A stretch of DNA of 64,000 nucleotides from the human T2T-CHM13v2.0 reference genome, Homo sapiens: the NCBI RefSeq assembly GCF_009914755.1, contig NC_060943.1, one strand, 5' to 3'. How positions within the stretch are numbered: the stretch's first letter is position 1; the number at the start of each line of letters is the position of its first letter. This document shows positions 28,750-42,045 of this stretch, in pieces. Below the pieces are notes generated by a model. It did no database searches. It was given only the letters and a program-made list of their open reading frames with translations, and was not told the DNA's origin. Made by a program: the position numbers and the translations under genes.

Positions 28750-31700
28750 AAAGATCCATTCCAAGATGGGCAAATAGGAAGAGATCTGGTCTGCAGATCC
28801 CAACGTGATCAAGGAAGAAGATGGGTGATTTCTGCATTTCCAACTGAGGTACCTGGCTGATCTCATTTGGACTGGTTGGACAGAGGGTGCAGCCCACAGG
28901 GGGCAAGCCAAAGCAGGGCAGGACATCACCTCACCTGGGAAGAACAAGGGGTTGGGGAATTTCCCTTTCCTAGCCAGGGGAAGCTGGGACAGACTGTACT
29001 TGGAAAAATGAGACACTCCCACCCAAATACTGCACTTTTCCCAAGGTTGCAGCAACCAGCAGAGAAGAATATTCTCTCCTGTGCCTGGCTCAGCAGGTCC
29101 TGCAGTCACAGAGTCTTGCTCACTGCTAGCACAGCAGTCTGAGGTCAAAGGTGACACAGCAGTCTGGTTGGGGGAAGGGTTTCTGCCTCTGCTGAGGCTT
29201 GAGTAGCTAAACAAAGTAGCTGGGAAGCTTGAACTGGGTGGAGCCCACTGCAGCTCAGCAAGGCCTACTGCCTCTATAGACTCCAACTTTGTGGGCAGGG
29301 CATATCTGAACAAAAGGCAGCAGACAGCTTCTGCAGACTTAAAAGTTCCTGTCTGACAGCTCTGAAGAGAGCAGTGGTTCCCCCAGCATGGGGTTTGAGC
29401 TCTAAGAATGGACAGACTGCCACCTGAAGTCAATCCATGACCCCTATGTAGCCTAACTGGGAGACACCCCCCAGTAAGGGCCGACAGACACCTCATATAG
29501 GTGGGTGCCCTTCTGGGACAAAGCTTCCAGAGGAAGGATCAGGCAGCAATATTTGCTGTTCTGCAATAATTGCCATTCTGCAGCCTCCACTGGTGACACC
29601 CAGGCAAACAGGTTGTGGAGTGGACCTCCAGCAAATTCCAACAGACCTGCAGCTGAGAAACCTGACTGTCAGAAAGAAAACCAGCAAACAGAAAGGAATA
29701 GAAGCAACATCAACAAAAAGGACATATACACCAAAACCCCATCTGTAGGTCACCAACTTCAAAGACCAAATGTAGATAAAACCACAAAGGTGGGGAGAAA
29801 CCAGAGCAGAAAAGCTGAAAATTCTAAAAACCAGGGCACCTCTTCTCGTCCAAAGGATCACAGCTCCTCACCAGCAATGGAACAAAGCTGGATGGAGAAT
29901 GGCTTTGAAGAGTTGACAGAAGTAGGCTTCAGAAGGTCGGTAATAACAAACTTCTCTGAGCTAAAGGAGCATGTACAAACTCATCACAAGGAAGCTAAAA
30001 ACCTTAAAGAAAGGGTAGACGAATGGCTAACTAGAATAAACAGTGAAGAGAAGACCTTAAATGACCTGATGGAGCTGAAAACCATGGCACGAGAACTTAG
30101 TGATGCATGCACAAGCTTCAATAGCTGATTCAATCAAGTGGAAGAAAGGGTATCAGTGATTGAAGATCAAAATAATGACATAAGGTGAGAAGACAAGGTT
30201 AGAGAAAAAGGAGTAGAAAGAAATGAACAAAGCCTCCAAGAAATATGGGACTATGTGAAAAGACCAAATCTATGTTTGATAGGTGTACCTGAAAGTGATG
30301 GGGAGAATGGAACCAAGTTGGAAAACACTCTTCAGGATATTATCCAGGAGAATTTCCCCAACCTAGCAAACTGGGCCAACATTCAAATTCAGGAAATACA
30401 AGAGAACACCACAAAGATACTCCTTGAGAAGAACAACCCCAAGACAAATAATTTTCAGATTCACCATGGTTGAAATGAAGGAAAAATGTTAAGGGTAGCC
30501 AGAGAGAAAGGTCAGCTTACCCACAAAGGGAAGCCCATCAGACTAGCAGCAGATGTCTCAGCAGAAATCCTGCAAGCCAGAAGAGAGTGGGGGCCAATAT
30601 TCAACAATCTTAAAGAAAAGAATTTTCAACCCAGAATTTCATATCCAGCAAAACTAAGCTTCATAAGTGAAGGAGAAATAAAATCCTTTACAGACAAGGA
30701 AATACTGAGAGATTTTGTCACGACCAGGCCTGCTTACAAGAGCTCCTGAAGGAAGTACTAAAAATGGAAAGAAACAACCTGTACCAGCCACTGCAAAAAA
30801 CATGTCAAATTGCAAAGACCATCGATGCTATGAAGAAACCGTCAATTAGCAGGCAAAATAACCAGCTAACTTCATAATTACAGGATCAAATTCACACATA
30901 ACAATATTAACCTTAAATGTAAAAGGGCTAAATGACCAATTAAAAGACACAGACCAGCAAATTGGATAAAGAGTCAAGACCCATCAGTGTGCTGCATTCA
31001 GAAGACCGATCTCACATCCAGAGACACACATAGGCTCAAAATAAAGGGATGGAGGAAGATCTACCAAGCAAATGGAAAACAAAAAAAAGCAGGGGTTGCA
31101 ATCCTAGTCTCTGATAAAACAGACTTTAAACCAGCAAAGATCAAAAAAGACAAAGAAGGCCATTACACAATGGTAAAGGGATCAATGCAACAAGAAGGTT
31201 AACTATCCTAAATATATATGCACCCAATACAGGAGCACCCGGATTCATAAAGCAAGTCACCAGAGACCTACAAAGAGACTTAGACTCCCACACAATAATA
31301 ATGGGAGACTTTAACACCCCATGGTCAACATCAGACAGATGAACGAGACAGAAGGTTAACAACGATATCCAAGAGTTGAACTCAGCTCTGCACCAAGCTG
31401 ACCTAATAGACATCTACAAAACTCTCAACACCAAGTCAATAAAATATACATTCCTCTGAGCACAACATCACACTTATTCTAAAATTGACAACATAATTGG
31501 AAGTAAAGCACTCCTCAACAAATGTAAAAGAACAGAAATCACAGTAAACTGTCTCTTAGACCACAGTGCAATCAAATAAGAACTCAGGATTAAGAAACTC
31601 ACTCAAAACTGCACAACTACATGGAAACTGAACAACCTGCTCCTGAATGACCACTAGGTAAATAATGAAATGAAGGCAGAAATAAAGATGTTCTTTGAAA

Positions 31701-34700
31701 CCAATGAGAACAAAGACACAACATAACAGAATCTCTGGGACACATTTAAAGCAGTGGGTAGAGGGAAATGTATAGCACTAAATGCCCACAAGAGAAAGCA
31801 GGAAAGATCTAAAATTGACACCCTAACATCACAATTAAAAGAAATAGAGAGGCAAGAGCAAACACATTCAAAAGCTAACAGAAGACAAGAAATAACTAAG
31901 ATCAGAGCAGAACTGAAGGAGATAGAGATGCAAAAAACCCTTCAAAAAATCATTGAATCCAGGAGGTGGTTTTTTGAAAAGATCAACAAAATTGATAGAC
32001 TATTAGCAAGACTAATAAAGAAGAAGAGGGAAGAATCAAATAGATGCAATAAAAAATGATAACGGGGATATCACCACTTATCCCACAGACATACAAACTA
32101 CCATCAGAGAATATTATAAACACCTCTATGCAAATAAACTAGAAAATCTAGAAGAAATGGATAAATTCCTGGACACATAAACCCTCCCAAGACTAAACCA
32201 GGAATAAGTTGAATCTCTGAATAGACCAATAACAGGTTCTGAAATTGAGGAAATAATTAATAGGCTACCAACAAAAAAAGTCCAGGACCAGATGGATTCA
32301 CAGCTGAATTCTACCAGAGGTACAAAGAGGAGGTGGTAACATTTCTTCTGATACTATTCCAATCAATAAAAAAAGACAGAATCCTCCCTAACTCATTTTA
32401 TGAGGCCAGCATCATCCCGATACCAAAGCTTGGCAGAAACACAACAAAAGAGAATTTTAGACCAATATCCCTGATGAACATTGATGCAAAATTCCTCAAT
32501 AAAATACTGGCAAACCAAATCCAGCAGCAAATCAAAATGTTTATCCTTGACAATCAAGTCAGCTTCATCCCTGGAATGCAAGGCTGGTTCAACATATGCA
32601 AATCAATAAACGTCATCCATCATATAAACAGAACCAACGACAAAAACCACATGATTGTCTCAATAGATGCAGAAAAGGCCTTTGACAAAATTCAACAGCC
32701 CTTCATGCAAAAACTCTCAATCACCTAGGTATTCAAGGAATGTTTCTCAAAATAATAAGAGCTGTTTATGACAGAACCACAGCCAATATCATACTGAATG
32801 GGCAAAAACTGGAAGCATTCCCTTTGAAAACTGGCACAGGACAGGGATGTCCTCTCTCACCATTCCTATTCATCTTAGTGTTGAAAGTTCTGGGCAATCA
32901 GGCAAGAGAAAGAAATAAGGCGTATTCAATTAGGAAAACAGGAAGTCAAATTGTCCCTGTTTGCAGATGACATGATTGTATATTTAGAAAACCTCATCAT
33001 CTCAGCCCCATGTCTCCTTAAGGTGATAAGCAACTTCAGCAAAGTCTCAGGATACAAAATTTTTCAATGTAAAAAATCACAAGCATTCCTATACACAAAT
33101 AACAGACAAACAGAGAGCCAAATCATGAGTGAACTCCCATTCACAATTGCTGCAAAGAGAATAAAATACCTAGGAATACAAATTCCAAGGAATGTGAAGG
33201 ACCTCTTCAAGGAGAGCTACAAACCACTGCTCAATGAAATAAAAGAGGACACAAACAAATGGAAGTACATTCCATGCTCCTGGATGGGAAGAATCAATAT
33301 TGTGAAAATGGCCATACTGCCCAAGGTAATTTATAGATTCAATGGCATCCCCATCAAGCTACCTCTGACTTTCTTCACAGAATTGGAAAAAAACTACTTT
33401 AAAGTTCATATGGAACCAAAAAAGAGCCCTCATTGCCAAGACAATCCTAACCAAAAAGAACAAAGCTGAAGGCATCACACTACCTGACTTCAGACTATAC
33501 TACAAGGCTACAATAACCAAAACAGCATGGTACTCATACCAAAACAGAGATATAGACCAATGGAACAGAACAGTGGCCTCAGAAATAACACCACACATCT
33601 ACAATCATCTGATATTTGACAGACCTGACAAAAACAAGAAATGAAGAAAGGATTCCCTATTTAATAAATGGTGCTGGGAAAACTGGCTAGCCATATGTAG
33701 AAAGCTGAAACTGGATCCCTTCCTTACACCTTATACAAAAATTAATTCAAGATGATTTAAAGATTTAAATGTTAGACCTAAAACCATAAAAACCCTAGAA
33801 GAAAACCTAGACAATACCACTCAGGACATAGGCATGGGCAAGGACTTCATGACTAAAACACTAAAAGCAATGGCAACAAAAGCCAAAATCGACAAATAAG
33901 ATCTAACTAAACTAAAGAGCTTCTGCACAGCAAAAGAAAATACCATCAGAGTGAAAAGGCAACCTAAAGAATGAGAGAAAAATTTTGAAATCTACCCATC
34001 TGACAAAGGGCTAATATCTAGAATCTACAAAGAAATCAAACAAATTTACAAGAAAAAAACAAACAACCCCATCAAAAAGTGGGCAAAGGATATGACAGAC
34101 ACTTCTCAAAAGAAGACATTTATGCAGCCAGCAAGCACATGAAAAAATGCTCCTCATCACTTGTCATCATAGCAATGGAAATCAAAACCACAGTGAGATA
34201 CCATCTTATGCCAATTAGAATGGTGATCAAAAAAGTCAGGAAACAAGATTCTGGAGAGAATGTGGAGAAATAGGAACACTTTTACACTGTTGGTGGGAGT
34301 GTAAATTAATTCAACCATTGTGGAAGACAGTGCAGCGATTCCTCAAGGATCTAGAACTAGAAATACCATTTGACCCAGCAATCCCATTACTGGATATATA
34401 CCCAAAAAATTATAAATCATGCTGCTATAAAGACACATGCACACGTATGTTTATTGCAGCACTACTCACAATAGAAAAGACCTGTACTCAACCCAAATGT
34501 CCATCAATGATAAACTGGATTGAGAAAATGTGGCACATATACACCATGGAATACTATGCAGCCATAAAAAAGTATGAGTTCACGTCCTTTGCAGGGACAT
34601 AGATGAAGCTGGAAACCATAATTCTCAGCAATCTATCACAAAGACAGAAAACCAAGCATCATATGTTTTCACTCATAGGTGGGAATTGAACAATGACAAC

Positions 34701-41800: not shown

Positions 41801-42045
41801 CAGTCTGTCACAGTTTCCCTTGGCCAGGAAAGGGAATTCCCCAACTCCTTGCACTTCCCAGGTGAGGTGATACACTTCCCTGCATTGGCTCACACTCCAT
41901 GGGCTGCACCTACTGTCCAACAAGCCCCAGTGAGATGAACCTGGTAGCTCAGTTGGAAATGTAGAAATCACCCATCTTCTGCATCGCTCACGCTGGGAGC
42001 TGTGGACTGGAACTGTTCCTATTCAGCCATCTTGGAACCTCTATC
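35888..42045 (-). mobile_element. Full-length L1 (L1PA5-like 3' end), ORFs disrupted
   Basis: Antisense ORF1/ORF2 fragments; 5' end ...GCCATCTTGGAACC near 42040. TSD AACTATTTATAAGTATTCTT (35868-35887) / AACTAGTTGTAAGTATTCTT (42046-42065). Confidence 0.95.

What the first reader, a model, noticed from the sequence alone, without database searches (positions are those of the whole stretch)
28750..42045. Two independently inserted, inverted full-length L1s share disabling mutations: gene conversion in an L1 quasi-palindrome
Seen: the elements have different TSDs and different 3'-end diagnostics (GAGTTGATGGG/AAACCAAC type versus GAGTTAATGGG type), so they are separate insertions. Yet both carry the same departures from the L1 ORF2 consensus as I recall it: the same nonsense codon DHSAIK* (TAA 31577-31579 and 39246-39248); the same TTTT insertion giving GYKIFQC (33061-33064 and ~37755-37759); TSRDTH; KPAKIK; GAPGFIKQVTRD; LLDH; GTGGGTAGA; PRNVKD; WKYIP; ACCTCTGAC; ATACCACTCAGG; ATATCTAGAATC; CCCAAAAAATTAT. 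Established: L1 cis-preference makes inheriting a stop plus an indel from an active parent unlikely. Inference: 6-kb arms around a 1-kb loop exchanged sequence by patchy, old non-allelic gene conversion over roughly 31000-34420 / 36400-39830, as palindrome arms do.
Basis: partly seen in the sequence, partly recalled or inferred. Interest (0 to 1): 0.8.

Follow-up and report, generated by a model that had tools for sequence, protein, structure and literature searches.

The report
Gene conversion between two inverted L1s
Two dead L1 retrotransposons that inserted separately, in opposite orientation and 1 kb apart on human chromosome 19, have exchanged short stretches of sequence; a duplicated copy of the locus that lacks the second element shows this clearly, but the process itself is already known.

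Summary
A (28750-34888, +) and B (35886-42045, -) are full-length, broken L1s, each with its own target-site duplication, around a ~1-kb spacer. Both carry the TAA at 31577-79/39246-48 and the TTTT insertion at 33061-64/37755-58.

The new evidence is a segmental-duplication paralogue 0.8 Mb away. It holds the same A insertion (A') and an empty site where B sits. So the order was: A inserted, the locus duplicated, then B inserted here only.

Taking A' as control and 46 dispersed L1 copies as outgroup, A and B share 25 rare derived events that A' lacks. A' and B share 4 (p = 1e-4). Trees put A with A' in the 5' 1.7 kb, but A with B in parts of ORF2.

Across the whole genome, the TTTT insertion and two multi-base variants occur only in A and B, or in A, B and A'. 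At least five stretches of 70-400 bp within 30962-33943 look exchanged. A-to-B transfer is shown for three; the direction for the TAA stretch is open.

Several listed variants are ordinary states of other L1 lineages, and the arms are not homogenised like true palindromes. This is a clean instance of a known process.

The parts
28732..28749 (.). Left target-site duplication of L1-A (18 bases, 16 of 18 identical to the right copy)
   Evidence: The same TSD flanks the paralogue A'.
28750..34888 (+). L1-A: full-length, decayed L1 of an older L1PA type, present before the segmental duplication
   Evidence: RVT_1 (PF00078) hits at 32333-32728 and 32951-33469. Longest ORF2-region ORF is 172 aa. The paralogue A' (L042) is 89.8% identical over 6192 columns and has homologous flanks.
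34889..34906 (.). Right target-site duplication of L1-A, after its poly(A)
34907..35867 (.). Spacer (loop) between the inverted arms. It is an old dispersed repeat, in the same orientation as in the paralogue.
   Evidence: more than 35 dispersed matches at 73-80%, and the paralogue at 91-94%; collinear with the paralogue, so the spacer is not inverted.
35868..35885 (.). Target-site duplication of L1-B on its poly(A) side
   Evidence: It is present once at the empty site of the paralogue.
35886..42045 (-). L1-B: full-length, decayed L1 of a different, younger-looking L1PA type, inserted after the segmental duplication
   Evidence: Transposase_22 (PF02994) at 40170-40571 and RVT_1 at 37716-38153. 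B is absent from the paralogue.
42046..42063 (.). Target-site duplication of L1-B on its 5' side
30962..31146 (+). Candidate exchanged stretch 1 in A (partner in B 39865-39680). It holds the shared rare states at 30995, 31018 and 31134.
   Evidence: d(A,B)=8, d(A',B)=19, d(A,A')=16 over 186 columns; at 31021 and 31079 A carries B's state while A' keeps a state shared with older-type copies, a weak hint of B-to-A transfer.
31200..31267 (+). Exchanged stretch 2 in A (partner 39625-39558), 68 bases identical. It holds G at 31241 and the three-base variant ACC at 31259-61.
   Evidence: a 32-mer allowing up to 2 mismatches finds ACC only in A, B and A' in the whole genome. ACC predates the duplication and B postdates it, so the transfer ran from A to B.
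31546..31843 (+). Exchanged stretch 3 in A (partner 39279-38982). It holds the shared TAA stop (31577-79 and 39246-48) and shared states at 31557, 31726 and 31757.
   Evidence: d(A,B)=7, d(A',B)=30, d(A,A')=27 over 298 columns; site patterns A-odd 2, A'-odd 25, B-odd 5. B is the best non-self match in the genome (98% against at most 96%, 40 of 2093 candidates scored). Direction not resolved.
32994..33386 (+). Exchanged stretch 4 in A (partner 37825-37432). It holds the shared TTTT insertion (33061-64 and 37755-58) and shared states at 32994, 33097, 33178/85/91, 33266 and 33364-65.
   Evidence: d(A,B)=19, d(A',B)=38, d(A,A')=41 over 394 columns; the TTTT 24-mer, even with up to 2 mismatches, matches only A and B genome-wide; tree ((A,B) 0.97, A') 0.81 for columns 4200-4700, which indicates A-to-B transfer.
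33646..33943 (+). Candidate exchanged stretch 5 in A (partner 37171-36874). It holds C at 33820 (also in A') and A at 33899, which makes a stop codon in both arms.
   Evidence: d(A,B)=15, d(A',B)=29, d(A,A')=32 over 298 columns..

Best explanation
An older L1 (A) inserted on chromosome 19p12. A segment of at least 22 kb around it was then duplicated, giving the paralogue about 0.8 Mb away that carries A'. After that a second L1 (B), from a different L1PA lineage, inserted about 1 kb from A in the opposite orientation, in this copy only. These steps are shown. The two arms then exchanged sequence by non-allelic (interlocus) gene conversion without crossover. The exchange is in at least five stretches of roughly 70-400 bp, confined to the end of ORF1 and to ORF2, where the two lineages were most alike. 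There is none in the 5' 1.7 kb, where the arms are only 78-87% alike. This is inferred from site patterns and trees. A was the donor for the stretches that carry ACC (31259-61), the TTTT insertion and 33820, because B there carries states that A and A' had before B existed. The direction for the TAA stretch is open, and one stretch may have gone from B to A. The likely mechanism, inferred and not tested, is repair of a break or stalled fork in one arm using the nearby inverted arm as template, resolved without crossover since the spacer is not inverted. Neither element has a function. The effect is that inactivating lesions such as a frameshift and stops were copied between neighbours.
For: 1. 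History. L042 carries a full-length L1 that is 89.8% identical to A. Its flanks match window 28223-28769 at 92.3% and 34879-35371 at 91.3%. L050 runs from window 35360-35887 straight into 42046-42342 with a 20-base overlap, which is a single TSD copy and so an empty site for B. Flank divergence is 6.2% over 7038 sites. A and A' share 51 rare columns that B lacks, spread over the whole length.
2. Asymmetric sharing. For rare states (at most 5% of 46 other copies), A and B share 25 events (29 columns) that A' lacks, while A' and B share 4. Binomial p = 1.0e-4. Restricted to non-CpG substitutions the counts are 24 and 3. At a 10% threshold they are 28 and 6. Strict substitution-only counts give A=B 24 and A'=B 4.
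3. Trees. Columns 0-1700 give (A,A') with support 1.0. Columns 1700-3100 give (A,B) at 0.985. Columns 4200-4700 give ((A,B) 0.97, A') 0.81. All of ORF2 gives ((A,B) 0.986, A') 0.83.
4. Genome-wide exclusivity. The TTTT 24-mer has 2 of 2 hits in A and B, also with up to 2 mismatches. The G+ACC 32-mer matches exactly only A and B; A' has ACC without the G. The 34-mer spanning 33178/85/91 and the 29-mer with TC at 33364-65 match exactly only A and B.
5. Stretches. d(A,B) is well below d(A,A') in five stretches, for example 7 against 27 of 298 columns. The maximal segment, columns 2224-5218, has A'-odd 175 against A-odd 113. The control region, columns 0-1700, has B-odd 193, A-odd 95 and A'-odd 69.
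6. Local structure. Mismatch density within 15 bases of shared sites is 0.062. It is 0.085 at random matched sites (P = 0.028) and 0.124 around sites that were not exchanged.
7. Indels. The only rare indel shared by exactly two of the three elements and involving B is the TTTT insertion in A and B. No indel is shared by A' and B alone.
Against: Within ORF2, exchanged-type and unexchanged-type markers are interleaved about as randomly as a shuffle (33 runs against 37.2 +/- 4.1, P = 0.18). The stretches were therefore delimited after the fact, and their p-values are optimistic. No long near-identical stretch exists. The longest identical A-B run is 106 bases, while unrelated copies reach 121 against B and 109 against A. 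In 300-column windows B is A's best partner in only 3 of 21 windows, and by small margins. About 4-6 of the shared events are expected from homoplasy alone, the A'=B baseline. Sites of subfamily type give no clear asymmetry (65 against 48 columns, mostly CpG-like; about 10 against 8 with a consistent older-type set), so B-to-A transfer is not shown. The panel is 48 copies chosen by a search that scores only 40 of about 50,000 candidates, so rarity in the panel is weaker than the whole-genome pattern counts, which cover only four variant clusters. No other primate genome could be examined.
Confidence: 0.85

Rival explanations
1. B was born a mosaic. During B's target-primed reverse transcription 1 kb from A, the reverse transcriptase switched templates onto A's transcript, or the new cDNA paired with A's DNA. 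The A-like stretches would then date from the moment of insertion rather than from later gene conversion.
For: B's private load inside the stretches is close to its private rare load in ORF2 as a whole: B-odd is 21 of 1176 columns (1.8%, summed) against 82 of 3648 (2.2%). The data therefore allow an exchange at or soon after insertion. Patchy repair of a single long heteroduplex would also explain the interleaving of markers.
Against: This needs at least five separate A-like stretches alternating with non-A-like sequence. It also needs the dead element A to be transcribed and present in the same complex. Divergence differs among stretches (7 of 298 against 19 of 394 columns), which fits several events better than one, though not significantly. 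In stretch 1 A appears to carry B's states, which template switching cannot produce.
Confidence: 0.08
2. The shared variants mark an unrecognised or trans-mobilised L1 sub-lineage from which both A and B descend, with no exchange in place.
For: Some shared states are lineage states elsewhere. A at 33178 and 33191 occurs in at least 33 copies. C at 33365 lies in a 29-mer with 464 other matches. T at 31557 occurs in at least 14 copies, and two old copies carry T plus TAA.
Against: A' is the same insertion as A, yet it lacks 32 of the 39 shared columns. Those states therefore arose after A's insertion, or came from B. L051 and L052, the two copies with T plus TAA, share no other A/B-only state. 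TTTT, G+ACC and TC are found in no other copy in the genome. In the 5' 1.7 kb, A and A' pair with support 1.0 and B lies elsewhere.
Confidence: 0.03
3. Chance homoplasy: parallel mutation at hypermutable sites in two decaying L1s.
For: A baseline exists: A' and B share 4-6 rare events. The TAA arose repeatedly and is seen in 11 other copies.
Against: The counts are 25 against 4 events, with 24 against 3 for non-CpG substitutions. The shared changes include an identical 4-base insertion and two- and three-base changes. A-B has 21 exclusive events, against at most 7 for correctly aligned independent pairs among 861 pairs.
Confidence: 0.02
4. The two arms are an inverted duplication of one L1 rather than two insertions.
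For: They are inverted arms of equal length around a short spacer.
Against: The arms have different TSDs. The paralogue has an empty site for B. The 5' UTRs are only 78% identical and differ at many subfamily-type sites.
Confidence: 0.01

Closest known systems
Non-allelic gene conversion between neighbouring transposable elements. For Alu: Kass et al. 1995 and Aleshin and Zhi 2010, as described in passages of PMC6598467 that I read.
   Same: Independently inserted copies of one repeat family exchange short stretches. The rate is said to rise for copies within 10 kb and with sequence identity. The result is a conflict between insertion history and sequence tree.
   Different: Here the elements are 6-kb L1s rather than 300-bp Alus. 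The proof comes from a paralogous locus that lacks one partner, not from genome-wide statistics or cross-species comparison.
Repair of a break in a LINE by gene conversion from other endogenous LINEs (Tremblay, Jasin and Chartrand 2000, cited in passages of PMC1920257 that I read).
   Same: L1 sequence is used as a homologous template for repair, and stretches can be very short (down to 13 bp according to that passage).
   Different: That was an induced break in cultured mouse cells with dispersed donors. Here it is a germline, evolutionary outcome between two adjacent inverted copies.
Segmental-duplication replicates of transposable elements used to detect recombination (PMC7827986; abstract and passages read).
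   Same: The logic is the same: two copies of one insertion created by a segmental duplication should differ only by point mutation, so extra differences point to recombination. That paper reports such a signal in 1.3-2.8% of L1 pairs.
   Different: That study does not identify donors. Here the donor or partner is identified, and the paralogue serves as a control for an ABBA/BABA-type test.
Arm-to-arm gene conversion in large palindromes such as those of the human Y chromosome (recalled, from no call).
   Same: Inverted arms around a short spacer exchange sequence within one chromatid.
   Different: True palindrome arms stay more than 99.9% identical through ongoing conversion (recalled). These arms are about 89% identical overall and 92% in ORF2, arose from two insertions, and show only patchy, limited exchange.

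Membership tests
LINE-1 (L1) retrotransposon, full-length copy | ORF1 and ORF2 (reverse transcriptase) coding remnants in the right order | tested here: met
   RVT_1 (PF00078) in A at 32333-32728 (E 1.4e-14) and in B at 37716-38153 (E 2.7e-13). Transposase_22 (PF02994, E 2.6e-53) in B at 40170-40571. The A ORF1 fragment tested gave no hit, but A aligns to B over its whole length.
LINE-1 (L1) retrotransposon, full-length copy | Poly(A) tail and flanking target-site duplications, with an empty site elsewhere | tested here: met
   Searches show the TSDs of both elements. The empty site for B is in the paralogue. No empty site for A was available.
Non-allelic (interlocus) gene conversion | The two sequences have independent origins at distinct sites | tested here: met
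   The TSDs differ, B is absent from the paralogue, and the 5' UTR types differ.
Non-allelic (interlocus) gene conversion | Excess of shared derived states relative to a control lineage that could not take part | tested here: met
   25 against 4 events, p = 1e-4. Strict counts give 24 against 4.
Non-allelic (interlocus) gene conversion | Tree topology changes along the sequence (mosaic) | tested here: met
   (A,A') in columns 0-1700 and 4700-5700, and (A,B) in columns 1700-3100 and 4200-4700.
Non-allelic (interlocus) gene conversion | Exchanged sites cluster into contiguous stretches | tested here: inconclusive
   Over the whole element they cluster (P = 0.00045). Within ORF2 they do not differ from random (P = 0.18). 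Local mismatch density is lower near shared sites (P = 0.03-0.08). Stretches were delimited after the fact.
Non-allelic (interlocus) gene conversion | No exchange of flanking sequence, so no crossover | tested here: met
   The spacer is collinear with the paralogue and not inverted.
Non-allelic (interlocus) gene conversion | Orthologues in other species show the state before conversion | not testable with these tools
   No primate genome other than this assembly is held.
Palindrome under concerted evolution (Y-chromosome type) | Arms kept nearly identical along their length by ongoing conversion | tested here: not met
   Arm identity is 77-96% by window, and the longest identical run is 106 bases.

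The most novel reading that the evidence does not exclude
A long-dead L1 passed its own lesions to a newly inserted full-length neighbour. The TTTT frameshift, and possibly the TAA stop, arose in A after the duplication and were copied into the younger B, early in B's life or even during its integration. If this is general, old L1 remnants would act as local templates that disable or scramble new full-length insertions nearby. Subfamily calls and ages of clustered L1s would then be systematically distorted.
Probability: 0.3. Interest if true: 0.55.

Novelty: new member of a known kind. Interest (0 to 1): 0.4.

Why it matters
Gene conversion between dispersed repeats is accepted, but it is usually inferred statistically. 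At this locus the history can be read directly, because a duplicate of the locus preserves one partner without the other. That allows a clean test with an internal control. The case shows that two L1s of different subfamilies, now about 90% alike, exchanged stretches of 70-400 bp only where they were most similar, and that stops and a frameshift travelled with them. In practice it warns that divergence-based ages and subfamily labels of neighbouring L1s can be wrong in parts. It also suggests a design for a genome-wide survey: inverted or direct repeat pairs in which one member has a segmental-duplication control. It does not reveal a new mechanism.

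Tried and rejected
1. Ranking by pairwise identity. B is not clearly A's nearest relative by window identity, because young near-consensus copies score as high. I dropped this as a test.

2. Longest identical runs (a GENECONV-like idea). 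A-B runs are longer than A'-B runs, but no longer than runs to unrelated copies. Not decisive.

3. The first panel (L002-L041) under-sampled older lineages. Pattern searches showed that three 'rare' states are common elsewhere, so I did not rely on panel rarity alone.

4. A-L011 looked like a second pair with heavy sharing (17 columns). It is a misalignment of an internally deleted copy.

5. L051 and L052, the two dispersed copies with T plus TAA, were fetched as possible relatives of B. They are older copies, 82-87% identical, and share nothing else.

6. Direction from subfamily-type sites gave no significant asymmetry.

7. The non-CpG divergence between A and A' in ORF2 (7.6%) exceeds that of the flanks (5.5%). 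Rare private substitutions alone sum to about 6.2%, so I make no claim of extra exchange with other L1s.

9. Four literature searches were answered. They turned up general work on conversion between transposable elements. None of the listed titles concerned this locus, and I did not search for the locus by name.

10. Subfamily names (A about L1PA7/8, B about L1PA4-6) are recalled from 3'-end motifs and were not tested. No repeat library was available.

Full report
**1. Anatomy**

The region holds two full-length L1 elements in opposite orientation.
- A lies at 28750-34888 on the + strand.
- B lies at 35886-42045 on the - strand.
- A spacer of about 1 kb separates them.

The repeat finder reports 30 inverted pairs between the arms, 78-97% complementary. 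A global alignment of 6156 against 6171 bases (6214 columns) gives these identities:
- 77-78% in the first 500 columns;
- 83-92% through ORF1;
- 88-96% in ORF2;
- 83-88% at the 3' end.

Both elements are heavily broken. The longest reading frames in the ORF2 parts are 172 aa in A and 163 aa in B. Pfam finds reverse-transcriptase pieces in both arms and the L1 ORF1 RNA-binding domain in B.

Each element has its own target-site duplication:
- A: 28732-28749 and 34889-34906;
- B: 35868-35885 and 42046-42063.

**2. The observation**

Both arms carry the TAA at 31577-79 / 39246-48 and the TTTT insertion at 33061-64 / 37755-58.

I aligned 40 dispersed L1 copies to the pair. They were fetched from the same genome: L002-L030 by similarity to A, and L031-L041 taken from B's hit list. 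A and B share a state carried by at most one panel copy at 37 columns, and by none at 23 columns.

Counted as substitution events, A-B has 21. Among 861 pairs the median is 0 and the 99th percentile is 5.4. Three other pairs score high:
- L020/L021 (131 events) is 99.8% identical including its flanks, so it is a segmental duplicate.
- L028/L029 (15 events) is 96% identical including its flanks, so it is also a segmental duplicate.
- A-L011 (11 events) is a misalignment of an internally deleted copy.

**3. A caution about the panel**

The genome search scores only 40 of about 50,000 candidates, so the panel is not a fair sample. Whole-genome pattern searches showed that some 'rare' states are ordinary elsewhere:
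- The 29-mer around 33364-65 has 464 other matches at one mismatch. Nearly all of the 98 listed have the C of 33365 but not the T of 33364.
- The A at 33178 and the A at 33191 occur together in at least 33 other copies.
- T at 31557 occurs in at least 14 other copies.
- The TAA 29-mer occurs in 11 other copies.
- Two old copies (L051, L052) have both T and TAA. They are only 82-87% identical to A and B and share no other A/B-only state.

Other variants are exclusive across the genome:
- The TTTT 24-mer matches only A and B, also with up to 2 mismatches.
- The 32-mer with G at 31241 plus ACC at 31259-61 matches exactly only A and B.
- The exact 34-mer and 29-mer match only A and B.

**4. The key finding: a paralogue that lacks B**

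The pattern search found a third copy with ACC, 0.8 Mb away on the same chromosome. Fetching it (L042) showed a full-length L1, A', that is 89.8% identical to A over 6192 columns.

Its flanks are homologous to A's flanks, and the same TSD is present:
- 555 bases upstream at 92.3%;
- 495 bases downstream at 91.3%.

The continuation of that locus (L050) matches window 35360-35887 at 94%. It then runs, with a 20-base overlap, straight into window 42046-42342. The paralogue has one copy of B's TSD and no B, which is a clean empty site. Further downstream the two loci remain collinear as far as window 50457.

The spacer itself is an old dispersed repeat. Its only close relative is this paralogue.

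The order of events is therefore fixed: A inserted, the segment was duplicated, and B inserted into this copy only. Flank divergence between the paralogues is 6.2% over 7038 aligned sites.

A and A' share 51 rare columns that B lacks, spread from the 5' UTR to the 3' UTR. B shares only 7 of the A/A' rare columns.

**5. The test**

A and A' are the same insertion, and only A has B as a neighbour. B should therefore share rare derived states with A and with A' equally often, unless A and B exchanged sequence.

The 46 other copies then in the alignment (40 panel copies less A', plus L043-L049) served as outgroup.

| Measure | A = B, not A' | A' = B, not A |
|---|---|---|
| Rare states, at most 5% of outgroup (events) | 25 (29 columns) | 4 |
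| Non-CpG substitutions only | 24 | 3 |
| Rare states, at most 10% of outgroup (events) | 28 | 6 |
| Strict substitution-only columns | 24 | 4 |

The binomial p is 1.0e-4 at the 5% threshold and 2.0e-4 at the 10% threshold.

For scale, the strict counts with 48 other copies also give A=A' 34, A=A'=B 5, and private loads of 172 (A), 160 (A') and 147 (B).

The only rare indel shared by B with just one of the other two is the TTTT insertion in A and B. No indel is shared by A' and B alone.

**6. Trees**

| Columns | Result | Support |
|---|---|---|
| 0-1700 | A and A' are sisters; B lies elsewhere | 1.0 |
| 1700-3100 | A and B are sisters | 0.985 |
| 3100-4200 | A and A' sit in a clade of four; B lies elsewhere | 0.63 |
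| 4200-4700 | ((A,B), A') | 0.97 and 0.81 |
| 4700-5700 | A and A' are sisters | 0.95 |
| All of ORF2 | ((A,B), A') | 0.986 and 0.83 |

These topologies cannot all reflect the known history, so sequence has moved between A and B.

**7. Where the exchange lies**

The cumulative excess of A'-B mismatches over A-B mismatches is maximal over columns 2224-5218. That is A 30962-33943 and B 39865-36874, with an excess of 62 sites.

Five stretches inside it stand out:

| Stretch in A | Columns | d(A,B) | d(A',B) | d(A,A') |
|---|---|---|---|---|
| 30962-31146 | 186 | 8 | 19 | 16 |
| 31200-31267 | 68 | 0 | 1 | 1 |
| 31546-31843 (TAA) | 298 | 7 | 30 | 27 |
| 32994-33386 (TTTT) | 394 | 19 | 38 | 41 |
| 33646-33943 | 298 | 15 | 29 | 32 |

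In the TAA stretch the site patterns are A-odd 2, A'-odd 25 and B-odd 5. B is also A's best non-self match in the whole genome there, at 98% against at most 96%, with 40 of 2093 candidates scored.

Two regions behave as controls:
- Columns 0-1700 give the expected pattern: B-odd 193, A-odd 95, A'-odd 69.
- Columns 3110-4200 are star-like: 51, 58 and 58.

These stretches were chosen after looking at the data, so their individual p-values are optimistic. Within ORF2, exchanged-type and unexchanged-type markers are not significantly clustered (33 runs against 37.2 +/- 4.1, P = 0.18). Over the whole element they are (P = 0.00045).

Local mismatch density is lower around shared sites. Within 15 bases it is 0.062, against 0.085 at random matched sites (P = 0.028) and 0.124 around unexchanged markers. 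About 4-6 of the isolated shared sites are expected to be homoplasy.

**8. Direction and timing**

Several states predate the duplication, because A' has them, and they are absent or nearly absent from other L1 copies:
- ACC at 31259-61;
- the combination at 33178/85/91;
- C at 33820.

B, which inserted later, can only have obtained them from A. So A was the donor in those stretches, and the TTTT insertion lies inside one of them.

In stretch 1 two sites suggest the opposite direction: A has B's state while A' keeps a state shared with older-type copies. The mirror pattern occurs about as often elsewhere, so this is not established. The TAA stretch has no informative marker.

For timing, the ratio d(A,B)/d(A,A') is 0.26 in the TAA stretch and 0.46-0.50 in stretches 1, 4 and 5. 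By inference, the exchanges date to roughly a quarter to a half of the time since the duplication.

B's private load inside the stretches is 21 of 1176 columns. This is not much below its private rare load in ORF2, 82 of 3648. An exchange very early in B's life, or at its integration, therefore cannot be excluded. I give no absolute dates, because they would rest on a recalled substitution rate.

**9. Mechanism**

This is inferred, not tested. A break or stalled fork in one arm was repaired from the nearby inverted arm without crossover; the spacer is not inverted relative to the paralogue. Exchange is absent where the two L1 lineages differ most (the 5' UTR, at 78% identity) and is concentrated in ORF2. 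That fits a dependence on homology.

**10. Comparison with what is known**

- Passages of PMC6598467 describe non-allelic gene conversion among Alu elements, with higher rates for copies within 10 kb.
- Passages of PMC1920257 cite break repair in a LINE by conversion from endogenous LINEs, and an intrachromosomal conversion inside an L1.
- PMC7827986 (abstract and passages) uses segmental-duplication replicates of transposable elements to detect recombination, and reports a signal in 1.3-2.8% of L1 pairs.

The present case is an instance of this known process, with an unusually clean internal control. It is not a palindrome under concerted evolution. I saw no supplements, and none bears on the claims made here.

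**11. Verdict**

It is a new member of a known kind, of moderate interest.

Noticed in passing
window 28223-50457 and G000:C19:23091500-23106700 (L042, L050): At least 22 kb of the window has a paralogue about 0.8 Mb away on the same chromosome, with about 6% substitution divergence. The paralogue differs by an Alu in its spacer (L050 1-266), by about 1.8 kb present only in the window (about 42980-44774), and by about 490 bases present only in the paralogue (L050 3101-3589).
   Followed up: partly
window 34907-35867: The spacer between the two L1s is itself an old dispersed repeat, with more than 35 genome matches at 73-80% identity over nearly its full length. I did not name its family.
   Followed up: no
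window 28750-34888 against L042: The non-CpG divergence between A and its paralogue A' is higher in the L1 body (ORF2 7.6%, 3' UTR 10.9%) than in the flanks (5.5% over 7038 sites). This could reflect hypermutable sites or exchange with other L1s. It is unexplained.
   Followed up: partly
window 31577-31579 and 11 other genome sites: The same stop codon in the same 29-base context occurs in 11 other dispersed L1 copies, and two of them also carry the T of 31557. It looks like recurrent mutation on an older L1 background.
   Followed up: partly
window 33071-33072 (A only): A lacks one base, present in B, shortly after the shared 4-base insertion. As a result A reads through this spot in frame while B does not. 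With so many other lesions this is probably coincidence.
   Followed up: no
L020/L021 (C14:9.90 Mb, C22:12.60 Mb) and L028/L029 (C2:57.42 Mb, C9:131.37 Mb): Two pairs of panel L1s on different chromosomes are duplicates including their flanks, 99.8% and 96% identical. They are inter-chromosomal segmental duplications, and the first pair lies on acrocentric short arms.
   Followed up: partly
window 33899 / 36918: Both arms have a further stop codon at the same codon through a shared G-to-A change. A reads TAA and B reads TGA, because the neighbouring base differs.
   Followed up: no
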